Position numbers and translations under genes: made by a program. The notes beneath the pieces were generated by a model. That model made no database searches and was not told where the DNA came from. It saw nothing but the letters and a program-made list of their open reading frames with translations. From positions 44,578 to 108,577 of IMG/VR virus record IMGVR_UViG_3300037486_000582: 64,000 nt of DNA; one strand, given 5' to 3'. The number at the start of each line of letters is the position of its first letter. Position 1 is the stretch's first letter. The stretch is from a virus. This document shows, one piece after another, positions 6,162-30,563 of this stretch.

Positions 6162-6617
6162 TCAGACGGCGTCCCTGGGCATCGGAGCTCCGCCGGTCGC
6201 GCAGAGCACAACGTCCGTCGCCCCGGCCGCCACGTAGGCCGTGATACGGAACGCGACCAGGTGTCCGTCCACCGGAACCTGCGCGCTGGCGGCCAGCCCG
6301 GTCAAGCCACCGACCGACGTGAGCGTCTTCCAGCGCCGTCCGAGCGGAGCAGCGGCGTCCGGCGTCGCGACCATTGGCAGGACGTCGACGGACCCGCCGT
6401 CCACTGGTGCCCCGGTCGGGCCACGGAAGTCGGCGATCAGCCTGACGCTCAGCCACTCTCGAGCATCGAGGATGACGACGTCGGGGCCGAGCTCACCCGC
6501 GTTCCTGTTGTCCGGTGTCCAGAGACCCGACACCGGAGCGTCCGGCGCGTTCCGCGGAGCCCGGACGTCTGTCTTCGCACTCGGACTGTAGAGCCTACGC
6601 TTCGTGGGAGCTGTCAT
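6162..6617 (-). CDS. hypothetical protein (head module)
   Basis: 151-aa ORF with GAGGAGG RBS between portal and MuF. Confidence 0.6.
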   Translation of the reverse strand: MTAPTKRRLYSPSAKTDVRAPRNAPDAPVSGLWTPDNRNAGELGPDVVILDAREWLSVRLIADFRGPTGAPVDGGSVDVLPMVATPDAAAPLGRRWKTLTSVGGLTGLAASAQVPVDGHLVAFRITAYVAAGATDVVLCATGGAPMPRDAV

Positions 6618-9260: not shown

Positions 9261-10847
9261 TCATCCGATGGCGCGAACTCCAGACGACGACGATGAAGAC
9301 GCCCGCCGGCCGGTGTCGCGACGGAGTTTCCGCTCGTACATGCGCGCCGCTTCCCGCGCGATCCAGGAGGCCATGAGCCGGTCGCCGGTGTGACCTTGCG
9401 GGTCGTAGGCCAGCATGTCGTCGATCCAGTCGGCGACGCCCCTGGCGACGCGCCGGGAACCGACTTCGCAGGGGATGAGCCACCGGGAAGCCGCCATCTC
9501 CGCGGCGAGGCTCTCGACGCCGTACTCCGGGGACAGCTTGTTGCGGCCCGTGGTGAAAGCGCGGACGCGCATCCCAGGAGCGCGTTCCCTGACCCACTGG
9601 ACGAGGAAGTCCTGAGCAGCGTTGTTCTCCACGACGACCGTCGAGCGGAAGCGTTCGTTCACCGAGACGACCCGGTCGATGATCTCCGGGCCGCTCCACC
9701 GCCCCGCCTGAACCTCCAGCACTTGGCGCATCCCATTTGGCCAGAGCAGCAGCGTGAACAAGGCGCTCTTGCCGGACCCCGGCCGTGCGCTGATCGCGAG
9801 GTCGACGCCGGTGATGGTCATGAAGCCGGCCGGCATCCCGCCCATCTCGAGCAACTCCTCCGTCAGACTCATCTCGGCGGCGAACTCGGGGTCGCGCTCC
9901 GCGATGTCTTGCAGACTGCTGTACGTCGCGAACCCTTCGCCGAGCGCCAGGCACTGCTCGATCCACGACCGCTGGAACCGCGCGGTGCTCTCGTCGCGCG
10001 GCTGGCAGAGCATCTGACGAGAGAACTCGATCGGCCCGAGCACCTGGGTTCGGACGTGCTCGATCCGGTCCAGCGGCCACCGCTCCGGCCAGGCCAGCTT
10101 GCCGTCCTGGTCCAAGACGGGAAACCGCATCGAGTGCCACCCCTGGCGCTCCAAGTTGTGGGCCATGTCCTTCGGGTGCCAAGCGTTCGTCAGGAGGCAG
10201 ACCCACGCACCCTTCGCGAGCCGCGGGAAGGCGGAAGCGCGAATCCACTCCTCGATCTTGTCCCGCTGGTAGTTGGTGCGTGTGTTGTTCTCGGTCAGGA
10301 CGTCGTCGATGATGAGCCCGTCGAGCCGCGCGCCCTGGATGGTTCCTCCCTCCGGCGAGTAGGCTTGCAGGGACGGGTCCTTGATGCCGCCCGGACGCTC
10401 CACTTCCAACGAAACGTCGGTCCAGAGCGTGCCGCGACGAAGGTCTGGGAAGACCTGGTGGAGTATCTGGTTCTCGATGATGTGCTGCTGCGCGGTGCGG
10501 ATGATCTTCTTTGCCTGGCTCTGCGTCGCGGACAGAACTGCGTACCGCCGACGCTGGTCCTTCCCGAGCAGCCAGAGGACGCGGGCGATGGCGAGCTGCT
10601 GTGTCTTTCCGCTCTCGGGGAACGCCCAGATGACCACGTTGCGGTAGCGCTCGATGGCGTAGTGCCAGGCTGCCTGGAAGGGCTTCACCTGGATGTGGTT
10701 CCCCGTCTCCTCGTCCCGGAGGACCATCTCGCAGAACGCGGGACAGTCCCGCCGCGCCAGACGGAGCATCGCCGCCCACGCAAGCTGCGCCTGCTCACCG
10801 ATACCATCCGTCGGCGCGTCGCGCGCCACGCCCGTTCCAATGCCCAT
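9261..10847 (-). CDS. terL: terminase large subunit
   Basis: Walker A AFPESGKT, Walker B GARLDGLIIDD, RNase H-like TGVDLAIS ... TGDRLMASW; upstream of portal. Confidence 0.9.
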   Translation of the reverse strand: MGIGTGVARDAPTDGIGEQAQLAWAAMLRLARRDCPAFCEMVLRDEETGNHIQVKPFQAAWHYAIERYRNVVIWAFPESGKTQQLAIARVLWLLGKDQRRRYAVLSATQSQAKKIIRTAQQHIIENQILHQVFPDLRRGTLWTDVSLEVERPGGIKDPSLQAYSPEGGTIQGARLDGLIIDDVLTENNTRTNYQRDKIEEWIRASAFPRLAKGAWVCLLTNAWHPKDMAHNLERQGWHSMRFPVLDQDGKLAWPERWPLDRIEHVRTQVLGPIEFSRQMLCQPRDESTARFQRSWIEQCLALGEGFATYSSLQDIAERDPEFAAEMSLTEELLEMGGMPAGFMTITGVDLAISARPGSGKSALFTLLLWPNGMRQVLEVQAGRWSGPEIIDRVVSVNERFRSTVVVENNAAQDFLVQWVRERAPGMRVRAFTTGRNKLSPEYGVESLAAEMAASRWLIPCEVGSRRVARGVADWIDDMLAYDPQGHTGDRLMASWIAREAARMYERKLRRDTGRRASSSSSSGVRAIG

Positions 10848-10924
10848 CGGCCCAAGCATACCGCACTGTGACGCGCGCCGCGACCGCAACGGAAGCGGCG
10901 GACGAGCAACGTCCTACAGCCTCC

Positions 10925-13662: not shown

Positions 13663-14934
13663 CTACGCCCGCTCGGCGTTCCAGTAGTAGATCAAGTCGC
13701 CGTTCTCGTCCTTGCCCTCCGGCCGGATGACGCCTTCGAAGTAGCGGTATGGGGAGCGCCCGCGGTTCGGATTGTTCCAGAGCCAGTGCAGGAGGTCGTA
13801 CATGGACTGGTGCCAGATCTTCGACGCGCCTTCCACCGTGCCCCAGTTGAGGACGCGGGCGCGGATGTTCTTGAGCAGCCTCAAGTCCTTCTCGAAGTCG
13901 CTCCAACGGACTGAGCCGTTTCTGCGAGCCAGGACGAGCGCCTCGGTGAACTGGCCTCGGCTGTAGTTCCAGGTCGGGGGCAACCCGCAGCAGGAGCCGT
14001 TCGCGCAGCGCTCCTTGAAGTGGGCGTCCGAGACGTAGAAGCGCAAGCCGACCTCCTTGCACAGCTCCTCCATCCGGTCGATGACGGGCCGCTTCACGTT
14101 CCGGTTGAGCCGCATGTAACCGCGCATCGCCGAGTACCGCTTGTAGAAGGCGTACAGGTCGAAGCCGGCGAGCTTCGACATCTCGTGGAAGTGGAGCCGC
14201 CCGCCCGGGCTGCGCTCCTCCATGCAGAAGTACTCGGTGCTGAGCGCCGTCGCCCCGGCACTGGCCGCGTCACGGATGAGTTGCTCGTAGGTCGCGTCGC
14301 TGATCCCAGGGATGAAGGGGCGTAGCCGAAGGGTCACGCCACCCTTGTTCAGCTTGGCGTACTTCTCCATCGCCCGGAGGCGCTCCATTGGGCTCGGCAC
14401 ACCCTTCTCGACCTTCCGGGCGAGTTCCTGGTCGCCCGTGACGATCGAGATCTTCATGTTCCAGTTGTCCTGACCTCGGAAGATGTCCGTGTACCGCTCG
14501 TCGTCGAGCCACCAGGTCCCCTTCGTGCTGAAGCAGATGGGGTAGTCGAGGTCGCGCCAGAACCGGAGCAGCTCCAACCCAACGCCGTACCGCTTCTCGA
14601 ACGGGCAGAACGGGTCGGACAACCCGCCCCACTGAAGGACCTTCCGCGCCCGGATGAAGTCGGTGAAGCGATGGTCCGTGGTCGGGTCGAGCCACAGCCG
14701 CATGACCCGGTCGACGTTGACGGGGACGGCCTCGTGGCTCCAATACTTGTCCTTGCACTTCCCGACCCCGCGGGAGAACTGCGAGAAGCAGTACAGGCAG
14801 AAGTACCCGCACACGCTGTACTGGTCGAAGGTGACCGGCATCGAGCAGTCGGCGACCTCCGCGGAGCAGCGCGGCGAATCGTAGAACCGCTGAAGCCGTG
14901 CCTTCGGCCGGCCGTCACTCGTTTCCGCTGCCAT
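13663..14934 (-). CDS. radical SAM enzyme (SplB/spore-photoproduct-lyase-like clade)
   Basis: DQYSVCGYFCLYCFS (CxxxCxxC), GGLSDPF, STKG, EKGVPSPMERL, RLRPFIPG. Confidence 0.85.
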   Translation of the reverse strand: MAAETSDGRPKARLQRFYDSPRCSAEVADCSMPVTFDQYSVCGYFCLYCFSQFSRGVGKCKDKYWSHEAVPVNVDRVMRLWLDPTTDHRFTDFIRARKVLQWGGLSDPFCPFEKRYGVGLELLRFWRDLDYPICFSTKGTWWLDDERYTDIFRGQDNWNMKISIVTGDQELARKVEKGVPSPMERLRAMEKYAKLNKGGVTLRLRPFIPGISDATYEQLIRDAASAGATALSTEYFCMEERSPGGRLHFHEMSKLAGFDLYAFYKRYSAMRGYMRLNRNVKRPVIDRMEELCKEVGLRFYVSDAHFKERCANGSCCGLPPTWNYSRGQFTEALVLARRNGSVRWSDFEKDLRLLKNIRARVLNWGTVEGASKIWHQSMYDLLHWLWNNPNRGRSPYRYFEGVIRPEGKDENGDLIYYWNAERA

Positions 14935-15676
14935 GCTGCGTCCCAGCGCCACGCCCGGCGACCTCGTCGGCCATCCGCTGAAGCTCCTGCACAGGGTAGA
15001 TGATGCGGTTCGTGCGGAAGGGCACGCCGAAGCACCTCTCCAGCCACGTCCGCTCCGCCTCGCCCTTGAAGACGATGATGAGCCGTTCGCTCTGGAGTGA
15101 GTCGTCCTCGGCATCGAGCGGCGGAAGCGGGTCCGGGCGGAGCCCGGAGTCCTGCGTCCGAGACAGCCGACCATAGTCGATGCCTCCGGGCGCGTTGGGC
15201 TGGTCGGGCACCTGGAAGGTGACCGGGGCGAGCAACTCGTCGATGTTCAGGTCCGGGATGCGGGTGCTCTCGATGATCGCCTGGACCTCGTCCTCGCTCA
15301 TCCCCATCCCGCTGAAGAACGTGGTCTCGGGGTTCCAGTCGGCATAGCGGCTGTTGAGCTGGAGCAGCTTCGCGGCTGCGTCTTGACGGTCCTTCGCCCG
15401 GACCTCGACGTAGACGATGGGCGGGATGGTCCAGCCTTCCTGCTCCAGCGACCGCAGCGCGGCACACGTCTGGTGTCCGTCGAGGATCAGCGGCGAGCCC
15501 TCCTCGTCGCGCCACACGAACTTCGGCACGAACTGGCCGTAGCTCGTGAGACTGGACTTCAGCTTGGCGAGCGCCTCCTCGTCCAGCGGCTTCTTCAGGT
15601 CGCCCTGGAAGTCGCGGAGTTCCGTGTACGGAATGGTCGGTAGGCTGTGTGGGTTGTCGATCTGCAGCGTAGGCAT
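14915..15676 (-). CDS. ParB/Srx N-terminal domain protein
   Basis: LKSSLTSYGQFVP ... ILDGHQT ... LQLNSRY. Confidence 0.75.
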   Translation of the reverse strand: MPTLQIDNPHSLPTIPYTELRDFQGDLKKPLDEEALAKLKSSLTSYGQFVPKFVWRDEEGSPLILDGHQTCAALRSLEQEGWTIPPIVYVEVRAKDRQDAAAKLLQLNSRYADWNPETTFFSGMGMSEDEVQAIIESTRIPDLNIDELLAPVTFQVPDQPNAPGGIDYGRLSRTQDSGLRPDPLPPLDAEDDSLQSERLIIVFKGEAERTWLERCFGVPFRTNRIIYPVQELQRMADEVAGRGAGTQHGSGNE

Positions 15677-21928: not shown

Positions 21929-22056
21929 CACCTCCACCACCCTTTATAGGAAACCCGCGGGTTTCCCACAACACATCCCGGGACGATTATCAGAGCGCCC
22001 GCCCAATTCGGCTTGAGTCACGAAGGACTACGCGGGGAGATCCCCCGGACGATTTC
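21929..22056 (-). promoter_or_regulatory. early promoter cassette copy D (TTGTGG-17-TATAAA)
   Basis: -10 at 21943-21948, -35 at 21966-21971; ~60 bp near-identical to copy B. Confidence 0.8.
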
Positions 22057-22091
22057 CGGAGGCCGTGCGGAGTGAGGAAGCGTCTACCGCG

Positions 22092-22331
22092 TCACGGACG
22101 CCAGCGGCGAAGCCACGCCGGAACAGGTTCCACCTGGCGACGCGCAGCAAGGGCAGGGCGAACCCGCGGAGCCCGGTGGCGCTGGTCGTTCCGCAGCAAC
22201 TCGCAGCGGCCACAGACCGGGTCGCTCCCGAACAGGGACGGAGACAGAGCCGTCTCTTGGTCCGACGTTCCGCAGTCCGAGCAGTAGCGAACCGTGTCCA
22301 TCCTGACCTCCCTGGTCACGCCGACCCACAA
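22092..22331 (-). CDS. small Zn-finger hypothetical protein (likely start MDTVRYCSDC, ~22301)
   Basis: CSDC...CGRC; GGAGG RBS. Confidence 0.5.
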   Translation of the reverse strand: MWVGVTREVRMDTVRYCSDCGTSDQETALSPSLFGSDPVCGRCELLRNDQRHRAPRVRPALAARRQVEPVPAWLRRWRP

Positions 22332-22570
22332 TCGGCAAGCGCCTTGACGACGTCGGCGTGGAGCCAGTTCAGCATCCTGGTCGTCTCGGCAAGCCGGTCA
22401 CGAGCAGCGGTGAGCGCGCCCAGCCCGCAAGCCGGGCGGTTCCCGTGGCGCCCGCCGACCTCGACGGTGTCGAGCGCAGCGCGCTTCGTCCCTTCCAGCA
22501 GCCCAACGCAGATGAGCGCCCGAGTCACGAAGGCGTCCCACTCCAGCGGCGCGTCGTCAGGTGCGCTCAC
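22316..22570 (-). CDS. hypothetical protein
   Basis: GTGA overlap with upstream small ORF. Confidence 0.45.
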   Translation of the reverse strand: MSAPDDAPLEWDAFVTRALICVGLLEGTKRAALDTVEVGGRHGNRPACGLGALTAARDRLAETTRMLNWLHADVVKALADCGSA

Positions 22571-22683
22571 GGCAGCCACCCCAGGCAACCGAAGACGGTA
22601 GAGGCGATTGACACGCCGACCAACGCGCCGATCAACGGGGCGACCACGTCCAGCATGAGGTCGAAGGGTCGGGGTGTCAGCAT
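22567..22683 (-). CDS. 38-aa hydrophobic peptide (MLTPRPFDLMLDVVAPLIGALVGVSIASTVFGCLGWLP)
   Basis: GCGCAATGAC motif, GGAGG and ATG; below ORF-track length cutoff. Confidence 0.45.
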   Translation of the reverse strand: MLTPRPFDLMLDVVAPLIGALVGVSIASTVFGCLGWLP

Positions 22684-22701
22684 CGAGGTCCTCCGCCCCG
22701 G

Positions 22702-23391
22702 TCATTGCGCCGGCGCGTCCTGTGTCCTGTCGTACAGGTCACGGAGCAACCGCGCGTCAGCGTCCCGGAACCGCCCGGGCGCGAGCCCGCCCTGGAACGC
22801 CATGTCCGGGGCGAGCGGATACATCACCGACCCGCTGTCGTCGGGGTCGTGGGCAAGCCCAAGTACATGCCCGAGCTCGTGGACCAGAACCCGGTGTGCC
22901 GTCCCGTCGTCGGGGACGTTCCGCATCCGGACAGTGGCCCTGGCCACGAAGCCGCTTCCGACCTCGCGGGTGTGGAAGCAGCCGGCGTCGGCGTCCGCCG
23001 CCTCCGCAGGAACACCGAAGACCAGGGCAACGCGCGGTTCGGCGCTGACCGGACAGAAGGCCAGGGCGTCGAAGCCGAGCTGCATGTTGACCTCGCGGAC
23101 CGCATACTCGGCACGACGCATGTCCGCCGACGTCAGCTCCGCGCTCTCGTTGCGGACCCCAAGGCACAGCGGGAAGGCGCTCCTGCCCCAACGGACCTCT
23201 TCCGGCGACGCACAGACGCCGACGGCGCCCGAGCCTTCAACCTGGTCGGCGTACTGCGCGACCGTTCCGCTCCAGCACACACGAAGCAGGAGCGGCTCGG
23301 TGTGCCGCGGAACGAACCACACGAGCAGCACGACGGCGGTCACGGCGATGGCCGCGAAGGCGGCGACGGATACGATCCACTTCCAGCGCAT
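22702..23391 (-). CDS. membrane-anchored/secreted matrixin-like (metzincin) zinc metalloprotease
   Basis: N-terminal hydrophobic helix; HELGHVLGLAH and Met-turn SVMYP. Confidence 0.85.
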   Translation of the reverse strand: MRWKWIVSVAAFAAIAVTAVVLLVWFVPRHTEPLLLRVCWSGTVAQYADQVEGSGAVGVCASPEEVRWGRSAFPLCLGVRNESAELTSADMRRAEYAVREVNMQLGFDALAFCPVSAEPRVALVFGVPAEAADADAGCFHTREVGSGFVARATVRMRNVPDDGTAHRVLVHELGHVLGLAHDPDDSGSVMYPLAPDMAFQGGLAPGRFRDADARLLRDLYDRTQDAPAQ

Positions 23392-23409
23392 GGCGTACCT
23401 CCGAGGGTT

Positions 23410-24507
23410 CTAGTCTACGCCACCGCCGGGCGGGTCGCGCCAGTAGGCGGGCGGGTGGCAGAGTCGCGGCCAGGCTGCTCCGACCGGCCCGCCGGCCGTT
23501 GCGCGCACCGCGACTTCTGCGTCGTCCGGGTAAGGCTTCGGCATCTTCGGAAGGAGGAAGGCGCGCGTGCCGGCGTCCTTGTCGCACCAACCACACGGCG
23601 CGAACCGACGATCCTTCGACGCGAGCAGGCGCCGAGCAGCCATGAACCGCCAGCCCCACCAGATATCCGTCAGCGTTTCGTCCCGATCAGCCACGCCGCA
23701 GACGTAATCGCCGCGCCAGTCGATGCAGCAGAGCCGCACCTCGCCGTTCCAGGTGACGGCGAGCTCGCGGAAGGGGTTCGAGCAGTTCTTCCGGAGCGGA
23801 GCTTCTGGAACGGGGCGAGCCGGGCTCGCCCCGGCGTGGTTGAGCACCTTGCGGCTGGCCCGCTCCCGGTCGCGAAGTCCCAGGTCGTCCATGAGCACGA
23901 CGAGCCGGCGGGCGAAGCGCCTGTGGTTCCCCCACGGCGACCACCCGCTGGGGGCGAGGTCAGCGTAGAAGTCGCGTACGGTGATGCCGACGCCAAGCGT
24001 TGCTGCTTCGGCGCGGAGGTCGTCCCTGTCCTCACGGTAGGTGTCGATGATGACGTAGTCGAGTCCGGCGTCGAACAGCCCGACGATCTTCTCTCGCATC
24101 CGGCCCCGGAGAAGCTGGCCGTTCGTGGTCATCTGGAGCTGCGCCTTCGGGAGCAGCGCCCTGAAGGTCGCCACCACCTCGACCGCCTGTCGGTTGGCAA
24201 GTGGTTCACCGTGCATCGCGAACTCGTACCGCGCCCACGGGGCAAGGGCGGCTGCCTGTTCAGCCACGAGCAGCGCCGTGTCGAGCGTCATCGGCTTGAA
24301 GCCGCCAGGCTTCGTGCGGATTGCGTTCAGTCCGCAGAAGGAACAGAGCCGGGTACACCCTTCGGTCAGCTCGATCTGGACGGACCAGGGACGCTGGACC
24401 AGAGCAGCCGCCGGGTCAGCAGCGATGGCGTCTGCAGGCGCGTGTGGCGGCGGCGGCTGCCGCCACTTGTCGCGAACGTACCTCCGCTTCACCCGGGGCT
24501 CGGTCAT
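23410..24507 (-). CDS. radical SAM enzyme with SPASM/twitch domain
   Basis: [23 protein letters not shown]; CSNPF...[11 protein letters not shown]...CGWCD. Confidence 0.9.
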
Positions 24508-24941
24508 TGGTCTTCCAATTCCAGCGGGTCGGTCGGCCGGTCGGCATCCGCCTCCATCTCGCCGGCCACCGAACAGAACGCTTCGACGTGGTCAGCGCGA
24601 TCGAGCATCTGTCCTGCCAGGGACCGAATCTGCTTGGCGCACTCACGGAGTGCTGTGCGGAGCCAGGCATTTGCCTCGTGTTCGGCGAGCCAGGCCTCGT
24701 AGGAGACGTCCAAGCACCCACACGAGAGGAGCTGGCCTCCACACCGCGGGCACCGCTCCATGTCGCAGCCAGGATGGTGCCGACCGCCGGGGCGCACCCC
24801 GCAGTCATGACAGCAGTGACGCCCGGCCGGGCGGTAGGGCACCGTCGGAAGGGACTCCCCGTCCGGGAACACGACGGACACGTTCTTGACGCAGGTGTCC
24901 ACCTTGCCCATCTCTCCAGAGCACGCCAAGCAGGCTCCCAT
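24504..24941 (-). CDS. Cys/His-rich multi-Zn-finger protein
   Basis: [33 protein letters not shown]. Confidence 0.7.
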
Positions 24942-24974
24942 GTTTCGTTACTCCCGCCCCGGTCATTGAGCCGG

Positions 24975-25460
24975 TCAGCGGCCGGCACGAGCGAGACGCG
25001 CACGCTCCCGGGCAAGGCGCTCGCCGTGGAATCGGGTGCGAGCAGCGACGTGGGCCTGCGCGTCGGCCACGGCGGTCGGGCCACTGAACGCGCGTGGCGC
25101 GGGTATGGTAGACAGCCCGCCTGGGCGAGAGTACGTCCCGTCCTGGTTACGGAATGCTGGCACTCCTTCCGTGACCGTGACCTCGTCGGTGTTCGACCGC
25201 CGCGTCTGGACCATCGCCATGTAGGGTGAGCGCACGCGCTCGTTCCCCACGAACACGGCACCGCCGTTATTGTAGAAGTCCTCGGCGCGCGTCCCGGTCG
25301 GTGGCGCTGCCGAAACCCGCTCGATCACGTCCTCGGCGATCATGCGTCCGGTCAGCGGAGTCACCTCTGTCGGGAGCCCGCCGGCCGCTTCGCCACCGCC
25401 ACCGGCCGCTGCTCCGCCGGCTGCCCCGCCACCGCCGCCACCGCCTCCACGTCCGCCCAT
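24975..25460 (-). CDS. MGGRG-polyGly-tagged protein 5
   Basis: Starts MGGRGGGGGGGGAAGG; GGAGG RBS. Confidence 0.8.
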   Translation of the reverse strand: MGGRGGGGGGGGAAGGAAAGGGGEAAGGLPTEVTPLTGRMIAEDVIERVSAAPPTGTRAEDFYNNGGAVFVGNERVRSPYMAMVQTRRSNTDEVTVTEGVPAFRNQDGTYSRPGGLSTIPAPRAFSGPTAVADAQAHVAARTRFHGERLARERARLARAGR

Positions 25461-25463
25461 GAC

Positions 25464-25967
25464 CTACCTCCGTCCACCTGGCCGTGTGCCAGTAGTCGGC
25501 AACGATGGCCGACGCTGCCGCCGCTCCTCGGAGAGCCGCCGAGCGGACTCAGCCGCAGACCGCGTTGCCTCCCGTTGAGCAGCCTCCAGGGTCGCGTGCT
25601 GGCTCCGCTGTGTCGTCGCTGCCGTCCGGTTCGGCGCCCCAAATTCCCTGGCGCCTTGTCCCCAGCGCGAGGACGTCGCGACATCGAAGACGGGCTCGCC
25701 GCGGATGTTCTGCCCGCGGTCGATTGTCACCTGGCGGACGACGATGTCGTTGGTCTGCCCGACGCTGATGACGTTGCCTGCGGCTGCGACGTCGTTGCGG
25801 TTCAAGTTGTCCGGGTACCGCCCGGCCGGGAGCCCGCCCGAGACGACCGTTTCCGTTGCCGCCGTTGCCGCCGTCTCCGTCGCGGCACCGCCGCCGGCTG
25901 CCCCGCCACCACCCGCGGCACCACCACCGCCGCCGCCTCCACCACCACCACCACCACGTCCTCCCAT
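25464..25967 (-). CDS. MGGRG-polyGly-tagged protein 4
   Basis: Starts MGGRGGGGGGGGGGGGAAGG; AGGAGG RBS. Confidence 0.8.
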   Translation of the reverse strand: MGGRGGGGGGGGGGGGAAGGGGAAGGGAATETAATAATETVVSGGLPAGRYPDNLNRNDVAAAGNVISVGQTNDIVVRQVTIDRGQNIRGEPVFDVATSSRWGQGAREFGAPNRTAATTQRSQHATLEAAQREATRSAAESARRLSEERRQRRPSLPTTGTRPGGRR

Positions 25968-25976
25968 CTTGACCTC

Positions 25977-26486
25977 CTACCGCGCGACTGTTCTGCTCGT
26001 GTCGGGCAGGTAGACCCGCGCCAGTTGCGTTTCACCTCGACGCTGTCGATTTGGCCGCGGACGGGTGACCGGATCGACTGTCGCTCCGGACATGCCCTGT
26101 CGGGTCAGCATCTCTCCGATGGCCTGTTGCTCTCGGTCGGTGAGCGGACGCGTCCTGCTCCCTCGGCCGACCGAATTGAGCTCGATCCGCCCGGTGTTCA
26201 CGTCGCGGTTCACCTGGAGCCCTTGGTCGCGCAGCCCGGGGACGACGCTGATGGCGTCGACCAGAGCCCGCTCGGCTCGGCGCTGGCGCTGTTGCGGCGT
26301 CTCCGCATTCGCAGCCGCGACATTCCGCTGCACGTCCGCGAGCCGTGGAGCCCCGCCGGGGATGAGCCCGGAGGCCTCGACCACCGTCGCCGTCTCGGCC
26401 GCGGCTGCTCCGCCGCCACCGCCGGCCGCGGCACCGCCAGCTCCACCACCGCCGCGACCGCCGCCTCCTCCGCCTCGACCGCCCAT
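25977..26486 (-). CDS. MGGRG-polyGly-tagged protein 3
   Basis: Starts MGGRGGGGGGRGGGGAGG; AGGAGG RBS. Confidence 0.8.
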   Translation of the reverse strand: MGGRGGGGGGRGGGGAGGAAAGGGGGAAAAETATVVEASGLIPGGAPRLADVQRNVAAANAETPQQRQRRAERALVDAISVVPGLRDQGLQVNRDVNTGRIELNSVGRGSRTRPLTDREQQAIGEMLTRQGMSGATVDPVTRPRPNRQRRGETQLARVYLPDTSRTVAR

Positions 26487-26507
26487 GACTTACCTCCTGC
26501 TCGCCCG

Positions 26508-26909
26508 CTACGGGGTCCGCTCACCGGGGCGCAACCCGGCCTGCCTGATCCGCTCCTCGCTCGGTCTGACGCCGGACGGGAGCTGGCGCAGCTCGTTCAC
26601 CGTGAGCCCCGACGGGAGCGTCCCTCGGCGGTTCATCGCGTCGGTCGCGTTCATCCCGACGCCCTGCCACGTAGCCGAACGCCAGTCGCCCCAGACACCC
26701 CGCGTGCTGATGCCCTCACCGAGCGCGCGCAGCTCCGGGTCCGAGAGCGTCTGCAGCCGGGCTGGCGAGAAGTCCCCAGCCGGGTCCGTTGACGCCGCTG
26801 CCTCGGCGAGCACCGCGGCTGCTCCGCCGCCGCCACCGCCGCCTCCTGCAGCAGCCCCACCGCCGCCTCCGCCTCCCCGGCCACCGCCGCCACCGCCGCG
26901 TCCGCCCAT
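26508..26909 (-). CDS. MGGRG-polyGly-tagged protein 2
   Basis: Starts MGGRGGGGGGRGGGGGGGAAA; AGGAGG RBS. Confidence 0.8.
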   Translation of the reverse strand: MGGRGGGGGGRGGGGGGGAAAGGGGGGGGAAAVLAEAAASTDPAGDFSPARLQTLSDPELRALGEGISTRGVWGDWRSATWQGVGMNATDAMNRRGTLPSGLTVNELRQLPSGVRPSEERIRQAGLRPGERTP

Positions 26910-26918
26910 CGTCGCCTC

Positions 26919-27269
26919 CTAGTAGCTCCGCAGCGCGTCGCGGAGCTGCGGGTCCAAGTCACGGTTGTTGTGCCGAACTCCGTACATGAAGTTCCGGGCG
27001 TGGGCGGCCAACTCGGGCGGCGGGTTCGCGTCGAGGTACGTCCTGGTCGCACGGATCAGGTCGCGCCTGGCTTCGCCGTGGTCGCCCTTGTACCACCCGT
27101 TGAACGGCGTCATCCGGTCCATCCGGTCCATCGCGGTGATGGACTGCTGCAAGGATCGCCCGGCCGACGCGACGGCGGGCGGTACTGCAGCGGCTCCACC
27201 GCCGCCACCCGCGGCAGCCCCGCCACCGCCACCGCCACCGCCACCGCCTCCGCCACCACGTCCGCCCAT
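26919..27269 (-). CDS. MGGRG-polyGly-tagged protein 1
   Basis: Starts MGGRGGGGGGGGGGGGGAAA; AGGAGG RBS; 2 nt after DUF4417 stop. Confidence 0.8.
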   Translation of the reverse strand: MGGRGGGGGGGGGGGGGAAAGGGGGAAAVPPAVASAGRSLQQSITAMDRMDRMTPFNGWYKGDHGEARRDLIRATRTYLDANPPPELAAHARNFMYGVRHNNRDLDPQLRDALRSY

Positions 27270-27271
27270 GT

Positions 27272-28045
27272 TCAGCCTCCTGTCCCCGTTATTGCGTCGA
27301 CCGGCTCCGCGTCTGCCTCGTCATCGAACAGGCCGTCCAAGAGGCTCAACTGCCGCGTGTCCACGGGACCACGTTCCAGCCGCGAACGCATCTCGAGTAT
27401 ACCCTTGGGCGAGAAGCGAGCGAATGACGAAAGGTCTGCCACGCCGAGGTCATCCCAGAGCTCCCCGTACACGAGGACCATGGATGGCTGAATCGTGTCG
27501 ACCATCGCCCGGTACCCCTCGCAGAACCGACGTCGCACATCCTCCCCGACCCTGATACCTACCGTCGAAACGCAGACCGTCGAACGTCGCGCGATCCCGG
27601 CAAAGCAGAAGTCGAACGTACGCCAGTCGCCCCAGTTGACCGTGGGCACCACGACCGCCCCGCGAGCAGCCCAATAGGCGCCGAGCCACCGCGAGCGGTA
27701 GGTGTTCCAGAGCTGAAGCGCGGGCGGCCACTCGACGTACATGCTGAAGTCCGGCGTCAGCACGCCCTGCGCGCCAAGGACGTAGCGGTCGTACCTCCCG
27801 GGATTGTTCCAGACCGACTCGAATCGGTAGTCGTCGAAGAAGAAGTGCCAACAGCCGCCAGCCACTTCGTCGTCGTCGAGCTTGTTCCGGTTCACCCACG
27901 GAAGCAGCACGTCCGGCACCCAATCGACCGGGCCGGCGACATCTGGGAGGCCGAACCTGTTCGCGCTCCGATACAAGGACGTCGCGTGGAGCGGGTCCCA
28001 GTTGCCGGGGAGGCACTTCCAGTCCTTGACGTTCGGAATGCCCAT
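27272..28045 (-). CDS. DUF4417-family protein
   Basis: HFFFDDYRFESVWNNP, LTPDFSMY, QLWNTYRSRW, VVPTVNW, FDFCFAGI, VSTVG, LVYG. Confidence 0.85.
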   Translation of the reverse strand: MGIPNVKDWKCLPGNWDPLHATSLYRSANRFGLPDVAGPVDWVPDVLLPWVNRNKLDDDEVAGGCWHFFFDDYRFESVWNNPGRYDRYVLGAQGVLTPDFSMYVEWPPALQLWNTYRSRWLGAYWAARGAVVVPTVNWGDWRTFDFCFAGIARRSTVCVSTVGIRVGEDVRRRFCEGYRAMVDTIQPSMVLVYGELWDDLGVADLSSFARFSPKGILEMRSRLERGPVDTRQLSLLDGLFDDEADAEPVDAITGTGG

Positions 28046-28067
28046 GGCCTTCGTTTCTACCACGCCG

Positions 28068-28091
28068 GTCATTGAGCGTCTGCTCAATGAC
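28068..28091. promoter_or_regulatory. back-to-back pair of GCTCAATGAC elements (palindrome), divergent promoter candidate
   Basis: GTCATTGAGC-GTCT-GCTCAATGAC. Confidence 0.65.
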
Positions 28092-28097
28092 GTGGCC

Positions 28098-28526
28098 GTG
28101 ACGTTGCTACCGCTGCTGGACGACAAGCTCCCGGTGCTCCGCCGGCCGCATGAGCGCCTGGCCTCGGCGGACTTCATCGCCCTGTTCAGCGATGAAGATG
28201 CCGCTGCCATCCGGCTCGGAGAACGTGGGCGCATTCGCGTTCACGGCGTCGGGCACACATCCTGTCGGATCACGGTGATGCTGCGCGGACAGCGCCGTAT
28301 CGCGCTCCGCGCCGAGGTCGTGCGCGTTGCGCTCGTTGTCGGACTGGTCGAGATCGCCACGTCCTTCGGTTGGGACGTGGCGTACTCCGGTGGAATCGAG
28401 TCGGTGACGCGGATAAACGGGCTCGGGATGATCAAGCACCGTCCGGCGGTGGCCCTTGGGGATCTTGAGGTACGGAACCCCGGCGCTCCAGCACCGCGGA
28501 GACGAAGGCCCACGGCGGGCAGTTGA
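28098..28526 (+). CDS. hypothetical protein, probably leaderless
   Basis: GTG 6 nt after plus-strand GCTCAATGAC; fills a gap with no credible minus-strand gene. Confidence 0.5.
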   Translation: MTLLPLLDDKLPVLRRPHERLASADFIALFSDEDAAAIRLGERGRIRVHGVGHTSCRITVMLRGQRRIALRAEVVRVALVVGLVEIATSFGWDVAYSGGIESVTRINGLGMIKHRPAVALGDLEVRNPGAPAPRRRRPTAGS

Positions 28527-29601
28527 CGGCCTCGCTCCAGCCCACCGCCCGGGCAAGCCTGTCCCACTCGCGGTGCTCGTTGACCAGGGATGCCTCCTCG
28601 GTCCAGTCGTGGCCCCAGCCGACCGTCCCGTCCATCGCATGAGACGGCCCGTCGACCCACAGGGCGCTTGCCGCAGCCAGCTCGGCCGGCCGGTCGACAA
28701 GCGTCACGTCCCAGTACGGGTCGCACCAGGCATCGCACCAGCGCGTTACGTCCTCGTCCAGCGTGGGCTCGACGCGCACGCGGACGGGCGGGTCCAGATG
28801 GAACTCGCGGAAGTCGTCGCCGACGTATCCATAGACGGTGCGCGCAACCAGGATCTTCCCGACGTGGGCAGCGAACTCCGCGCGACAGAGCGCCTCGGCG
28901 CGCAGCCGCCCCGCCGCCTCCGGACCGGGCGGACTGACGCGCTCCGCCGCAACGGGCTCCCCGAGCGGAGCAGCGCCGGCGACAGCCGCCTTGATGGCGA
29001 TGGTGGCCTCGTCCGGTGTGTTCCAGCCGTCGGGGACAGCCGCCACGATTGCGTCGATCCAGCGACGGCGCGACCGTGCGAAGGCGGCGACCCGCTCGCG
29101 CAGCTCCAGAATGGTCGCGTTGGCGTCGGTCAGTGCATCTGGAAGTTCGGGGTGCTCGACGCGCGGTAGGCGCCCCATGATGCTCTGCGAGAGCCCGGAC
29201 AACTCATCAGCGACCTGGTAGCAGGCCAGCGCGCGTTCCTCCGCCAACATGTCCACGACACGCGGAGCGCCTTCCTTGCGGAGCCGCTTCGCCTCAGCCT
29301 CGTGTCGGTCGCCGGCTGCGAGCACGAGATCGACGACGCCTGGCGGCGGCCCGGCGAGCGCCGGGTTGGCGACGTCGGACTGGTCGGTTTCGCCCAGGTC
29401 GAGCTCGGCCTGGCGTTCGGCTTCCAAGTCCTCGCTGTTGTGCAGCGCCCCCAGGTCCGCACGCTCCCGCAGCAGCAGCACGGCTTCGTCGGCAAGCCCG
29501 ACACCGAGCGCCGCTGCTCGTGGGGGCTCGGCCATCGACGAGTACCTGTTGAAGCTGTCTCCGAAGACGGCTGCCCAGACCTGACGTTCCAGCAAGTTCA
29601 T
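28432..29601 (-). CDS. hypothetical protein
   Basis: GGAGG RBS, ATGA overlap at 29601. Confidence 0.6.
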   Translation of the reverse strand: MNLLERQVWAAVFGDSFNRYSSMAEPPRAAALGVGLADEAVLLLRERADLGALHNSEDLEAERQAELDLGETDQSDVANPALAGPPPGVVDLVLAAGDRHEAEAKRLRKEGAPRVVDMLAEERALACYQVADELSGLSQSIMGRLPRVEHPELPDALTDANATILELRERVAAFARSRRRWIDAIVAAVPDGWNTPDEATIAIKAAVAGAAPLGEPVAAERVSPPGPEAAGRLRAEALCRAEFAAHVGKILVARTVYGYVGDDFREFHLDPPVRVRVEPTLDEDVTRWCDAWCDPYWDVTLVDRPAELAAASALWVDGPSHAMDGTVGWGHDWTEEASLVNEHREWDRLARAVGWSEAVNCPPWAFVSAVLERRGSVPQDPQGPPPDGA

Positions 29602-30374
29602 GGTGCCTCCACGCTCTCGGCGAACTGTCGGATGATGTCCAAGATGCCACGCGAATCGAACCCGATCACGGAGCCCGCTTGGTTCGCTGCGATCTTGGCC
29701 AGGCTGACGTGGTCGATGGCAGACTGACGACGGATCGTCTCCCAGAAGTCGTCCGCCGGGCCAACGTCGGCATCCAGCCACGCGGCAACCTGAAGTGGGA
29801 GCCCGCGGACGTAGATGTCGCGCGGCCACCCGAGCCCCGCGGCGGCGGTCATCGCCACCTGGATCGAGGTCGCCACCGGAGCCCCGTTGTCGACCACGGC
29901 GACCATCGGCCGCTCCCCGTCTTCGCGCTCCGCGTAGGGACGGCAGGCGTCCCGCCCATCGAAGACGATGTACGTCCTGCAGCTGGTCGGCCTGACGGCG
30001 TACACGGTGCAGCGGTTCTGTCGGTCGAGCAACGGGCACCGGCTCATGCGCTCGCTCTCCCGACCGACGAGCAGCGTACGCTCCTGCTTCTCGCCAGCTC
30101 GGCGCAGTGCGCGGCGAAAGGAACGCGTCGCCCGACCGGCCGCGGTCAAGGCGCGAGCGACGGCCAGCGCCTCGACGAACGTCGTCAGGACTGGCTGGTA
30201 GCAGCAGTGCCCAAGCCCGCAGCCCGGACAAGCCGCCCGGCGCCCATCCACAAGCAGTCGCACTCCGGCCGCCTCGGACCAGCGGTCCGACGACCGCTTC
30301 ACCATGGCGTCCACGTCGGACAGCCGTTGTCCGAAGAAGACGGCCTCGGCCGCAGCGTCGAGCGCCCTACCCAT
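29598..30374 (-). CDS. YkgJ-family Cys-cluster (putative Fe-S/Zn) protein
   Basis: ACPGCGLGHCC ... CPLLD..NRCTVYAVRPTSCRTY. Confidence 0.8.
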   Translation of the reverse strand: MGRALDAAAEAVFFGQRLSDVDAMVKRSSDRWSEAAGVRLLVDGRRAACPGCGLGHCCYQPVLTTFVEALAVARALTAAGRATRSFRRALRRAGEKQERTLLVGRESERMSRCPLLDRQNRCTVYAVRPTSCRTYIVFDGRDACRPYAEREDGERPMVAVVDNGAPVATSIQVAMTAAAGLGWPRDIYVRGLPLQVAAWLDADVGPADDFWETIRRQSAIDHVSLAKIAANQAGSVIGFDSRGILDIIRQFAESVEAP

Positions 30375-30563
30375 GCAACCTCCGCCGCCCCTCCAGCCAA
30401 CGCCCGATGGCGCCGTACAGCTCGCGGACGTGGTCTTCGTGGAGCACGAGGCACGCTGCTCCCTCCGGCAGCACGACCTCGAACATCAGCCCGTCCGCGG
30501 CGTCCGGCCGGACGATGAGCCGCGACTCGTAGTGGAGGCCGGACCCGACCCCTTCCTTGGAGG

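What the first reader, a model, noticed from the sequence alone, without database searches (positions are those of the whole stretch)
24975..28045. DUF4417 enzyme + five tandem MGGRG-polyGly-tagged proteins with unrelated bodies: candidate protein-tagging/conjugation and cargo-delivery system
Seen: DUF4417 is followed, with 2-21-bp gaps, by five genes (116-169 aa), each with a GGAGG RBS. All begin with invariant M-G-G-R-G, then a Gly run and a Gly/Ala linker, then a mutually dissimilar ~90-140-aa domain. The tag is encoded with different synonymous codons, so selection acts on the peptide and it is not a DNA slippage repeat. The array has its own promoter motif (27288) as well as that of DUF4417 (28068). 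Recollection, to be verified: DUF4417 genes in other phages are often followed by a single MGGRG-starting ORF. Inference: GGRG, exposed after Met removal, is the substrate or recognition tag of DUF4417, and the flexible linker displays interchangeable cargo domains. If DUF4417 (conserved HFFxDD and PDFS aspartates) has a TGT-like transglycosylase barrel, the N-terminal Gly amine or the Arg guanidinium could replace a base, covalently tethering cargo to phage DNA for co-packaging and injection (anti-defence or DNA shielding). Alternatives: a T4 internal-protein-like capsid-targeting leader, or a RiPP-like leader.
Basis: partly seen in the sequence, partly recalled or inferred. Interest (0 to 1): 0.93.

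Follow-up and report, generated by a model that had tools for sequence, protein, structure and literature searches.

The report
Phage GGRG-tagged cargo array with DUF4417
This phage carries one enzyme-like gene (DUF4417, shaped like the enzymes that swap bases in tRNA and DNA) followed by five unrelated small proteins that all begin Met-Gly-Gly-Arg-Gly. The same enzyme-plus-tag pairing recurs in hundreds of phages and I found no paper on it, so it looks like an undescribed way of labelling and handling swappable phage cargo proteins.

Summary
On the minus strand, a DUF4417 gene (27272-28045) is followed, after gaps of 2-21 nt, by five genes. Each has a GGAGG ribosome site and starts MGGRG, followed by a 28-32-residue Gly/Ala linker. 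Their bodies are mutually unrelated orphans. No other ORF in the 108-kb phage starts this way.

The pairing is general:
- In 80 DUF4417 loci from viral contigs, 98 MG(G/K)RG-start ORFs lie just downstream of the gene, against 5 elsewhere. This holds in 15 of 19 lineages, at 27-68% GC.
- A separate scan found at least 110 phage contigs where the Prp/L27 cleavage leader NLQFF directly precedes GGRG. So the working tag is a free N-terminal Gly-Gly-Arg-Gly.

The DUF4417 model is a TIM barrel closest to ArcTGT, DpdA, QTRT2 and TGT (Z 8.8-10.6). Tagged bodies in other phages include ADP-ribosyltransferase and deamidase toxin domains, and almost all lack cysteine. The cassette usually sits just before terminase and portal.

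My best reading is a tag-and-reader system for polymorphic, probably virion-delivered, cargo. The chemistry is not shown, and covalent tethering to DNA remains speculative. The promoter claims and a link to the neighbouring radical-SAM gene are not supported. This scan has already noted the same system on about 30 other stretches of DNA.

The parts
27272..28045 (-). DUF4417 protein (257 aa), a TIM barrel with a TGT/DpdA-like shape. It is the candidate reader or enzyme for the GGRG tag. Residues 198-257 form a low-confidence acidic tail.
   Evidence: Pfam PF14386, E 5.5e-49. phrog_940 and phrog_8680. AF2 model pLDDT 86. VIA-align top hits: 1iq8 Z 10.6, 7ui4 Z 10.1, 6fv5 Z 10.0, 3unt Z 8.8. In BFVD the first hit outside the family is a phage queuine tRNA-ribosyltransferase, E 2.7e-4. 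The invariant residues lie at or just after the C-terminal ends of the modelled strands.
26919..27269 (-). Cargo 1 (116 aa). MGGRG plus Gly/Ala leader of 28 aa (27186-27269), then an 88-aa helical body.
   Evidence: The single-sequence AF2 model has residues 1-28 disordered and four helices in the body at pLDDT about 80. No Pfam, PHROG, NCBIfam or PADLOC match.
26508..26909 (-). Cargo 2 (133 aa). MGGRG plus Gly/Ala leader of 32 aa (26814-26909), then a 101-aa orphan body.
   Evidence: No family match.
25977..26486 (-). Cargo 3 (169 aa). Leader of 31 aa (26394-26486), then a 138-aa orphan body with an Arg-rich tail (net charge +8).
   Evidence: No family match.
25464..25967 (-). Cargo 4 (167 aa). 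Leader of 29 aa (25881-25967), then a 138-aa body. It is the only body with a detectable relative, which is the first cargo gene of the related metagenome contig L257.
   Evidence: BLASTP against the L257 cargo gives 49% identity over 72 aa (phmmer E 2e-4). Otherwise no homologues.
24975..25460 (-). Cargo 5 (161 aa). Leader of 28 aa (25377-25460), then a 133-aa orphan body with an Arg-rich C-terminal helix-like tail.
   Evidence: No family match. No usable Atlas hit.

Best explanation
This is a large instance (five cargo genes) of a widespread phage system made of a tag and a reader. The five proteins are polymorphic cargo or effector proteins. After the initiator Met is removed, each begins with a free Gly-Gly-Arg-Gly, followed by a flexible Gly/Ala leash of about 30 residues and a small, Cys-free, swappable body. 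DUF4417 is a TIM-barrel protein shaped like the tRNA/DNA base-exchange enzymes, with a fully conserved acidic and aromatic active-site face. I take it to be the dedicated partner that recognises or processes this N-terminus, most likely with the N-terminal amine and the Arg side chain held in the barrel pocket by the conserved Asp/Glu residues. The most likely purpose is to hand the cargo to the DNA-packaging stage, so that it leaves with the virion and acts in the next host. Shown: the genes, the peptide-level conservation of the tag, the genomic coupling, the need for a free N-terminus, the fold class, the toxin-type bodies in relatives, the Cys depletion, and the usual position before terminase and portal. 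Inferred: direct tag-DUF4417 contact, any catalysis, packaging and injection, and what the five orphan bodies do.
For: Coupling. In 80 viral DUF4417 loci, 98 MG(G/K)RG-start ORFs lie within -300..+2000 nt of the DUF4417 stop on the same strand. Only 5 lie elsewhere on that strand and none on the other strand (0.555 against 0.004 per kb). The pairing is seen in 73 of 80 loci and in 15 of 19 lineages clustered at 70% identity, at 27-68% GC. It also holds after DUF4417 in 39 of 76 loci from bacterial and archaeal genomes. In this phage, all 5 such ORFs in 108 kb adjoin DUF4417.

Reverse direction. A scan for NLQFF-GGRG returned at least 110 contigs. In 55 of the 80 loci fetched, DUF4417 lies on the same strand, in nearly all of them just upstream. 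A control pattern, MGGNGAS, gave 61 of 63 loci without DUF4417. The other two carry true ORF-start variant tags and do have DUF4417.

Free N-terminus. The L27/Prp cleavage motif ...NLQFF'A (PMC9405229) sits exactly before GGRG. Removal of Met before Gly is established knowledge.

Fold. The four TGT-family entries top the PDB-wide structural search (Z 10.6, 10.1, 10.0, 8.8) and generic barrels follow at Z 8.2 or less. Phage TGT-like proteins are the first BFVD hits outside the family. The invariant H67, D72, E76, D99, S101, R74, R117, R119 and Trp/Tyr residues lie at or just after the strand C-ends.

Cargo nature. Among 93 distinct tagged proteins there are ADPrib_exo_Tox x5 (best E 1e-24), Gln_amidase toxin x4, and single ART and ATLF matches. 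Of 88 distinct bodies from other loci, 79 are Cys-free (0.14% Cys against 1.84% in the neighbouring DUF4417; Fisher P 8e-60). The five bodies here have 0 Cys in 598 residues.

Packaging link. The cassette lies directly before terminase and portal in 4 of 5 representative loci, and at the left end before an HNH gene in cluster A mycobacteriophage Odin.

Cargo turnover. The 74%-identical relative L257 has a cargo-4-like gene first, followed by another tagged gene.
Against: No binding, modification or virion location has been shown for any member. The five bodies here are orphans with no recognisable toxin or effector domain. No immunity-like ORF separates them. In this phage the cassette lies about 14 kb upstream of the large terminase, not next to it. 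About half of the DUF4417 loci in cellular genomes show no tagged ORF under my pattern, and there the tagged proteins can reach 500-1000 aa, which fits capsid loading poorly. The TGT likeness is at fold level only, with Z about 10 where generic barrels reach about 8. No sequence link exists.
Confidence: 0.5

Rival explanations
1. Covalent tethering to nucleic acid. DUF4417 acts as a true transglycosylase. It removes a base from phage DNA (or an RNA) through an Asp-linked intermediate, and the cargo's N-terminal Gly amine or Arg guanidinium replaces the base. Cargo is then joined to the DNA and travels with it through portal and tail.
For: The barrel is TGT/DpdA-like. DpdA exchanges bases in DNA and needs the ParB-fold ATPase DpdB (PMC10164549). 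DUF4417 is often fused to a ParB-CTPase fold in phages (bioRxiv 10.1101/2025.10.10.680097; the phrog_940 profile has 388 positions with DUF4417 at 150-339). A free N-terminus is required. The flexible leash, the small Cys-free bodies and the usual position before terminase all fit passage together with DNA. From general knowledge, N-terminal amines as C1' nucleophiles (T4 endonuclease V, Fpg) and Arg-ribose N-glycosides (ADP-ribosyl-arginine) have chemical precedent.
Against: No adduct has been seen. No sequence relation to TGT was found. There is no conserved Cys/His zinc site. The equivalence of D72 and D99 to the TGT catalytic Asp residues is untested, and no invariant residue lies beyond G194, roughly where the TGT nucleophile would be expected. 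This phage has no ParB_N domain. Five competing cargos and the 500-1000-aa cargos in Chloroflexota are awkward for DNA-linked passage.
Confidence: 0.15
2. A T4 internal-protein-type capsid-targeting leader. GGRG plus linker is recognised by the scaffold, portal or head protease. DUF4417 is an unrelated DNA- or RNA-modifying enzyme that merely shares the operon.
For: The architecture matches T4 IPI-III and Alt: a short conserved N-terminal leader on unrelated, partly toxic bodies. The cassette usually sits in the packaging module. The Prp leader in front of GGRG is the same leader used on capsid and scaffold proteins of phage 80alpha (PMC9405229).
Against: The tag tracks DUF4417 across very different head-gene sets and hosts, at 27-68% GC and in bacteria and an archaeon. 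That is hard to explain if different scaffolds or proteases had to read it. The tag is also found with DUF4417 on long contigs of bacterial genome assemblies. A tag that must be exposed by cleavage is the opposite of a T4 leader, which is removed by cleavage.
Confidence: 0.12
3. An intracellular toxin or effector module that is not virion-linked. DUF4417 activates, inactivates or exports GGRG-tagged effectors inside the infected or lysogenic cell, for host takeover, superinfection exclusion or inter-bacterial competition.
For: Toxin-type bodies occur in relatives. The pairing is present in cellular genomes with very large tagged proteins. Earlier notes of this scan describe chromosomal DUF4417-toxin-immunity cassettes (not tested here).
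Against: The cargo array here contains no immunity-like genes. The usual position directly before terminase and portal and the near-total lack of Cys point to proteins that leave the cell. No secretion signal or secretion-system gene was seen beside the cassette.
Confidence: 0.1
4. RiPP-like precursors. The Gly-rich N-terminus is a leader for the radical SAM/SPASM enzyme encoded two genes downstream.
For: A radical SAM + SPASM gene (23410-24507) and a Cys-rich 145-aa ORF follow the array.
Against: The radical SAM gene, the Cys-rich ORF and the metalloprotease have no counterpart in any of 163 other DUF4417 loci. The bodies are 88-138 aa and Cys-free. The tag is coupled to DUF4417, not to radical SAM genes.
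Confidence: 0.02
5. No system at all: diverged paralogues of one ordinary gene, or a slippage-prone GGN repeat that creates similar starts by chance.
For: GGN runs are recombination- and slippage-prone, and the window is 69% GC.
Against: Third codon positions of the leaders are only 25-50% identical while positions 1+2 are 96-100% identical. The bodies are unrelated. The same five residues head ORFs beside DUF4417 in AT-rich phages.
Confidence: 0.01

Closest known systems
T4 internal proteins (IPI, IPII, IPIII, Alt) with an N-terminal capsid-targeting sequence
   Same: A short conserved N-terminal leader sits on unrelated, fast-evolving small proteins, some of them ADP-ribosyltransferases, that are thought to be delivered with the DNA.
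   Different: The T4 leader is removed by the head protease and needs no dedicated enzyme gene. Here the tag must be the free, exposed N-terminus, and it co-varies in presence with one enzyme-like gene, DUF4417, across unrelated head modules.
MuF-fused polymorphic toxins and polyvalent proteins of phages
   Same: Swappable toxin or effector domains (ART, deamidase, metallopeptidase) are encoded beside packaging genes.
   Different: Those toxins are physically fused to a head protein. Here the cargo is free-standing, carries a 4-residue tag plus flexible linker, and is paired with a TGT-fold protein.
DpdA/DpdB DNA 7-deazaguanine insertion system and tRNA-guanine transglycosylases (PDB 7ui4, 1iq8, 3unt, 6fv5; PMC10164549)
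   Same: These are the best structural matches to DUF4417 (Z 8.8-10.6). DpdA works with a ParB-fold NTPase, and DUF4417 is often fused to a ParB-CTPase fold in phages.
   Different: There is no sequence similarity, no conserved zinc site, no 7-deazaguanine pathway context examined or seen, and the conserved partner is a protein tag instead of a base.
Sorting-signal plus dedicated-enzyme pairs (sortase/LPXTG, exosortase/PEP-CTERM, rhombosortase/GlyGly-CTERM; recalled from general knowledge)
   Same: A very short invariant peptide tag on many unrelated proteins is tied by gene presence and neighbourhood to one dedicated processing protein.
   Different: Those tags are C-terminal, belong to cell-envelope sorting, and use protease or transpeptidase folds. 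This tag is N-terminal, phage-borne, and paired with a TIM barrel.
Prp-processed proteins: pro-L27 of Bacillota and capsid/scaffold of S. aureus phage 80alpha (PMC9405229)
   Same: In many Bacillota phages, the tagged proteins carry the same NLQFF leader directly before GGRG.
   Different: This does not apply to this actinobacterial-type phage, where Met removal would expose the tag. It matters here only as evidence that the tag must be a free N-terminus.

Membership tests
DUF4417 (Pfam PF14386) | Match to the family HMM above the gathering score | tested here: met
   166.6 bits against a cut-off of 28.9, E 5.5e-49, residues 25-196. Found once in the genome.
DUF4417-GGRG cassette (undescribed; defined here by neighbourhood) | One or more ORFs that start MGGRG (or expose GGRG after a Prp leader) on the same strand within about 2 kb downstream of DUF4417 | tested here: met
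   Five such ORFs with gaps of 2-21 nt. This is the norm in 73 of 80 viral loci.
tRNA-guanine transglycosylase / DpdA family | Sequence match to the TGT family | tested here: not met
   Pfam lists only DUF4417 at E up to 0.1. The profile search against PDB sequences gave 0 hits at E up to 10. hhalign against E. coli Tgt gave probability 0.1%.
tRNA-guanine transglycosylase / DpdA family | (beta/alpha)8 barrel with a deep central pocket, superposable on TGT/DpdA | tested here: met
   1iq8 Z 10.6, 7ui4 Z 10.1 (rmsd 3.1 A over 162 residues), 6fv5 Z 10.0 and 3unt Z 8.8 rank 1-4 of 48,161 chains. A phage queuine tRNA-ribosyltransferase is the first BFVD hit outside the family.
tRNA-guanine transglycosylase / DpdA family | Three invariant active-site Asp residues: general acid/base, base recognition and nucleophile (DpdA D95, D130, D256; PMC10164549) | tested here: inconclusive
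   DUF4417 has invariant D72 and D99 and near-invariant D71 just after strand ends. No residue-level superposition was available, and no invariant residue lies beyond G194.
tRNA-guanine transglycosylase / DpdA family | Zinc-binding Cys/His cluster of TGTs (recalled from general knowledge) | tested here: not met
   No invariant or nearly invariant Cys among 45 homologues, and H67 is the only invariant His.
T4-type capsid-targeting leader proteins | Leader removed by the prohead protease at a defined site | not testable with these tools
   No cleavage motif is evident. In Bacillota relatives, processing occurs before the tag and exposes it, which is the opposite logic.
Polymorphic toxin systems (conserved N-terminal part, variable C-terminal toxin, immunity gene) | Recognisable toxin domain followed by a cognate immunity gene | tested here: not met
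   The five bodies match nothing in Pfam, PHROGs, NCBIfam or PADLOC. Gaps of 2-21 nt leave no room for immunity ORFs. Relatives do carry ART and deamidase toxin domains.
RiPP precursor with radical SAM/SPASM maturase | Maturase gene co-occurs with the precursor family across relatives | tested here: not met
   tblastn with the radical SAM protein, the Cys-rich ORF and the protease against 163 other DUF4417 loci gave no hit.

The most novel reading that the evidence does not exclude
DUF4417 is a protein-to-nucleic-acid transglycosylase. It uses TGT-like double-displacement chemistry to replace a base in the phage genome with the free Gly-Gly-Arg-Gly N-terminus (amine or guanidinium) of cargo proteins. 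Phages would thereby inject a changeable set of effectors covalently leashed to their DNA. The ParB-fold fusions would play the role that DpdB plays for DpdA.
Probability: 0.15. Interest if true: 0.97.

Novelty: categorically new. Interest (0 to 1): 0.8.

Why it matters
If the reading holds, hundreds of phages share a modular address label for cargo proteins, read by one enzyme-like protein of a fold known so far only for base exchange in tRNA and DNA. These phages include the heavily used cluster A and L mycobacteriophages, many gut Bacillota phages and an archaeal contig. That would explain a family of unknown function (DUF4417) that RefSeq currently labels 'nuclease'. It would give a simple sequence rule (^MGGRG, or NLQFF-GGRG) for finding phage effectors, toxins and possible anti-defence proteins among genes of unknown function. 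It could also provide a short tag for loading chosen proteins into phage particles. The system is directly testable in Mycolicibacterium smegmatis phages with existing genetics.

Tried and rejected
- Complex prediction of DUF4417 (residues 1-230, alignment A1) with the tag and linker (alignment A2) gave no verdict (median score 0.29, mark 0.32). It counts neither for nor against binding.
- Foldseek against PDB gave only weak generic TIM-barrel hits (E at least 4.6e-3). The structural signal came from VIA-align and BFVD.
- Sequence links to solved structures or to E. coli Tgt: none.
- The first viral scan with the single DUF4417 protein found nothing. The alignment-based scan worked.
- A search for fused forms longer than 450 aa found none, which is weak evidence.
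- Cargo function: no homologues for the body of cargo 4. A profile search over 1.84 billion representatives found only its own relative and two repetitive giants. The Atlas gave nothing for cargo 5. The cargo 1 model had no significant BFVD match. phmmer of all five bodies against all fetched loci hit only L257.
- Covariation between the tag Arg and pocket residues: only one variant lineage was available (L208/L255, tags MGGNG/MGGSG). Its DUF4417 differs at D71E, P107N, W113N, W120L and T135I, among other positions. One lineage is too few to test the idea.
- Lys depletion as a general rule is rejected. Other high-GC cargos average 5% Lys.
- Sigma-70 promoter scan: 0 sites.
- NCBIfam and PADLOC: no hits for DUF4417 or the cargos.
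- Literature: 'DUF4417' occurs in 4 papers and none describes the pairing. 'MGGRG' and 'GGRG'+phage gave nothing relevant.

Full report
THE LOCUS

The window is the right-hand 64 kb of a 108,577-bp IMG/VR phage record at 69% GC. Nearly all genes run on the minus strand:
- replication genes (DNA polymerase, two helicases, an SbcC-like protein) at 45-64 kb;
- large terminase at 9261-10889;
- portal at 6595-8481.

At 27272-28045 (minus strand) lies a 257-aa protein that matches Pfam DUF4417 (E 5.5e-49). Five ORFs of 116, 133, 169, 167 and 161 aa follow, separated by gaps of 2, 9, 21, 9 and 3 nt. Each is preceded by GGAGG/AGGAGG.

All five start MGGRG. A run of 7-13 further Gly follows (interrupted by one Arg in two of them), and then Gly/Ala, giving leaders of 28-32 residues. 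No other ORF in the whole genome starts MGG[RK]G.

Across the first 12 codons, the five leaders agree at 96-100% of first and second codon positions but at only 25-50% of third positions. What is conserved is therefore the peptide, not a DNA repeat.

The bodies (88-138 aa) have no detectable similarity to one another. They match nothing in Pfam, PHROGs, NCBIfam or PADLOC.

A sigma-70 consensus scan finds no site in 22000-30500. The position named for the DUF4417 promoter lies inside a conserved plus-strand gene (see 'Neighbours' below).

IS THE PAIRING MORE THAN CHANCE?

Yes, and it holds far beyond this phage. tblastn finds DUF4417 in 506 GenBank phage records, mostly Mycobacterium, Streptococcus and Gordonia phages. 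In Mycobacterium phage Tourach, the next gene starts MGGRGGGGGG. In phage Odin, a 292-aa ORF starting MGGRGGKGG overlaps the end of the DUF4417 ORF.

An alignment-based scan of IMG/VR returned 80 DUF4417 loci. In them:
- 98 ORFs starting MG(G/K)RG lie within -300..+2000 nt of the DUF4417 stop on the same strand;
- 5 lie elsewhere on that strand and none on the opposite strand (0.555 against 0.004 per kb);
- 73 of 80 loci have at least one, as do 15 of 19 lineages clustered at 70% identity, over 27-68% GC;
- the cargo number per locus is 0 (7 loci), 1 (54), 2 (13) or 3 (6).

Five cargo genes is therefore the largest array in this sample.

In bacterial and archaeal genome contigs, 39 of 76 usable loci have an MGGRG ORF after DUF4417. 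These contigs come from Chloroflexota, actinomycetes, Eubacterium and a Methanobacteriaceae contig, among others. In Chloroflexota the tagged proteins are 500-1000 aa.

THE TAG MUST BE A FREE N-TERMINUS

One locus read ...NLQFF-GGRG, so I scanned for that pattern. At least 110 viral contigs carry it. In 55 of the 80 loci fetched, DUF4417 lies on the same strand. In nearly all of these it lies just upstream, typically 5-550 nt away.

NLQFF'A is the documented site at which the protease Prp removes the N-terminal extension of ribosomal protein L27. Prp also trims the capsid and scaffold proteins of phage 80alpha at the same site (PMC9405229). Cleavage there would leave Gly-Gly-Arg-Gly as the new N-terminus. 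Methionine aminopeptidase would leave the same end on MGGRG, because Met is removed before Gly (general knowledge).

As a control, the pattern for MGGNGAS returned 63 loci. In 61 the match was internal to unrelated ORFs and no DUF4417 was present. The two with a true ORF-start MGGNGASS (L208 and L255) do have DUF4417 nearby.

WHAT DUF4417 LOOKS LIKE

The AF2 model, built on 45 homologues, has a mean pLDDT of 86. It is an alpha/beta barrel.

The invariant residues lie at or just after the C-terminal ends of the modelled strands, which is the usual active-site face of TIM barrels:
- H67, D72-Y73-R74-F75-E76, W79;
- P98-D99-F100-S101;
- Y116, R117, R119, W120;
- W138, S160, G194.

Foldseek against PDB gave only weak generic barrels. 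The exhaustive VIA-align search ranked four members of one superfamily first:
- archaeosine TGT 1iq8, Z 10.6;
- the DNA preQ0 insertase DpdA 7ui4, Z 10.1 (rmsd 3.1 A over 162 residues);
- QTRT2 6fv5, Z 10.0;
- bacterial TGT 3unt, Z 8.8.

Designed and generic barrels follow at Z 8.2 and below.

In BFVD, after three DUF4417 relatives, the first hit is a mycobacteriophage 'queuine tRNA-ribosyltransferase' (E 2.7e-4). More phage TGT-like proteins follow at weaker E-values.

The likeness is at fold level only:
- no sequence link was found;
- there is no conserved Cys/His cluster for a zinc site;
- I could not test whether D72 and D99 coincide with the catalytic Asp residues of DpdA (D95, D130, D256; PMC10164549).

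I therefore say it is shaped like TGT/DpdA, and I do not file it as a member.

One parallel deserves mention. DpdA needs DpdB, a ParB-fold ATPase, to act on DNA. [quoted passage not shown] The phrog_940 profile has 388 positions, and DUF4417 occupies positions 150-339. I suspect that the 'nuclease' label on phrog_940, and on stand-alone DUF4417 genes in RefSeq, derives from such ParB-type N-terminal parts. I did not check this. This phage has no ParB_N domain.

WHAT THE CARGO IS

I scanned 93 distinct tagged proteins against Pfam: the five here plus 88 de-duplicated ones from other loci. The matches were:
- ADP-ribosyltransferase exoenzyme, 5 proteins (best E 1e-24);
- papain-fold glutamine deamidase toxin, 4;
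- DUF3626, 2;
- NDUS4, 2 (best E 4.5e-5, weak);
- DUF6883, ART and anthrax-lethal-factor-type domain, 1 each;
- two further weak single matches (LRR_ComC, Rib_mS39_PPR);
- nothing for roughly three quarters.

The tag thus heads a polymorphic set that includes bona fide toxin-type enzymes.

One general property emerged. Of the 88 distinct bodies, 79 have no cysteine (18 Cys in 12,932 residues, 0.14%). The DUF4417 proteins encoded next to them have 1.84% (Fisher P 8e-60). The sequences are related, so the P value overstates independence. The five bodies here have no Cys in 598 residues, against 1.6% in this phage's other proteins (P 8e-5).

Such Cys avoidance is typical of proteins that leave the cytoplasm. 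That is my inference, not a tested point.

The five bodies here also have a single Lys in 598 residues, against a 3.2% background (P 8e-8). This is peculiar to this phage, because other high-GC cargos average 5% Lys. It remains unexplained.

The single-sequence model of cargo 1 shows a disordered tag and linker (residues 1-28) and a four-helix body at pLDDT about 80. It has no informative structural match.

Cargo 4 has one relative. It is the first cargo gene of metagenome contig L257, whose DUF4417 is 74% identical to this one. On that contig the leader carries a long Gly run of more than 20 residues, and a second tagged gene starts at the contig end. Cargo content and order therefore differ between close relatives.

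WHERE THE CASSETTE SITS

In four of five representative loci from different lineages, the genes right after the cargo are small and large terminase and portal (L096, L063), or large terminase and portal (L065, L138). In cluster A phage Odin the pair lies at the extreme left end, before an HNH gene. Here it lies on the same strand as the large terminase but about 14 kb upstream of it.

NEIGHBOURS THAT ARE NOT PART OF THE SYSTEM

Downstream of the array lie:
- a Cys-rich 145-aa ORF (24504-24941), whose stop overlaps the start of the next gene;
- a radical SAM/SPASM gene (23410-24507);
- a matrixin/reprolysin-like zinc protease (22702-23391).

None of these has a counterpart in 163 other DUF4417 loci, so the RiPP reading is unlikely.

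Upstream lie a 389-aa protein of unknown function and a CxxCxxCC-domain protein, both shared with L257. A 162-aa gene on the opposite strand (28038-28526) is also conserved in L257 (53% identity, E 3e-33). Its start codon overlaps that of DUF4417 by 8 nt. It matches no family.

MECHANISM

What is shown:
- a peptide-level tag that must be N-terminal and free;
- a very tight, bidirectional genomic coupling to one barrel protein with an enzyme-like conserved face rich in Asp, Glu, Arg and aromatic residues;
- flexible Gly-rich or Gly/Ser-rich linkers after the tag;
- swappable, Cys-free bodies, some of them toxins;
- a usual position at the head of the packaging module.

What I infer (confidence 0.5): DUF4417 captures the free Gly-Gly-Arg-Gly end in its pocket and passes the cargo to the packaging stage, so that it travels with the virion. 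The two positive groups of that end, the alpha-amine and the guanidinium, would face the conserved acids.

It proposes a TGT-like base exchange that joins the tag to DNA. It fits the fold, the ParB parallel, the free N-terminus and the leash. It has no direct support, and it faces the missing zinc site, the missing sequence relation and the very large Chloroflexota cargos.

The other rivals are:
- a T4-type capsid-targeting leader with DUF4417 as a bystander (0.12);
- an intracellular effector or toxin module (0.10);
- a RiPP leader (0.02);
- an artefact (0.01).

NOVELTY

'DUF4417' occurs in four papers of the library, and none describes a tag or partner. 'MGGRG' and 'GGRG' give nothing relevant to phages. 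Earlier notes of this scan record the same pairing on about 30 other stretches. They also record the Prp-leader form, the TGT-like fold and a ParB-fused form. I re-derived each of these here from my own searches. What this locus adds:
- the largest array seen (five genes);
- pure Gly/Ala leashes;
- Lys-free cargo;
- the general Cys depletion of tagged bodies.

I know of no described system that pairs an N-terminal peptide tag with a TGT-fold protein, so I rate it categorically new. The function is still inferred.

Noticed in passing
window 28038-28526 (+): A 162-aa gene lies on the opposite strand in an otherwise all-minus region. Its ATG overlaps the DUF4417 ATG by 8 nt. It is conserved in the related contig L257 (53% identity over 135 aa, E 3e-33) and matches nothing in Pfam, PHROGs, NCBIfam or PADLOC. 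It could be a regulator or partner specific to this lineage.
   Followed up: partly
window 22702-24941 (-): Three genes lie right after the array: a Cys-rich 145-aa ORF (24504-24941), a radical SAM + SPASM enzyme (23410-24507, start overlapping the previous stop) and a matrixin/reprolysin-like HExxH protease (22702-23391, only 1 Lys in 229 aa). They look like a separate peptide-modification module and are absent from 163 other DUF4417 loci.
   Followed up: partly
window 24975-27269 (-): The five cargo bodies together have 1 Lys in 598 residues (background 3.2%, P 8e-8). The N-terminal Gly amine is therefore almost the only primary amine in each protein. This is not seen in tagged cargos of other high-GC phages and is unexplained.
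   Followed up: yes
window 13663-15174 (-) and 29598-30374 (-): There is a second, weak radical-SAM-like protein (503 aa, E 3.3e-4) and a CxxCxxCC (PF03692) putative metal-binding protein. The latter, and the 389-aa protein of unknown function at 28432-29601, are shared with contig L257 upstream of DUF4417.
   Followed up: no
L261-L334 (Chloroflexota genome contigs): In Chloroflexota MAGs the MGGRG-starting ORF after DUF4417 is often 500-1000 aa long. That is far larger than phage cargos and may represent a cellular, polymorphic-toxin-like use of the same tag.
   Followed up: no
L208:9835-12678 and L255: A variant lineage carries tags MGGNGASS and MGGSGASS. Its DUF4417 differs from the consensus at otherwise near-invariant positions (D71E, P107N, W113N, W120L, T135I). 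This would fit tag-pocket co-variation but is a single lineage.
   Followed up: partly
L009, L011, L023, L046, L047, L055: Some cluster-A-type mycobacteriophage contigs have MGKRGG in place of MGGRGG, while the listed conserved DUF4417 residues are almost unchanged. Position 3 therefore tolerates Lys, whereas Arg at position 4 is kept.
   Followed up: partly
phage records; phrog_940: RefSeq labels stand-alone DUF4417 genes 'nuclease' and phrog_940 carries the same label. [quoted passage not shown] The label may therefore come from ParB-type parts and not from any evidence on the DUF4417 barrel. I did not check what the N-terminal part of the profile is.
   Followed up: partly
P0123 (1480 aa) against window 25464-25880: The N-terminal motif of the cargo 4 body (G-R-x-P-x-N ... 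G-N-x-I-x-V-G-x-T-N-D) matches 19 repeated stretches in one 1480-aa metagenomic protein. This may be a repeat unit borrowed from a large repetitive protein.
   Followed up: no
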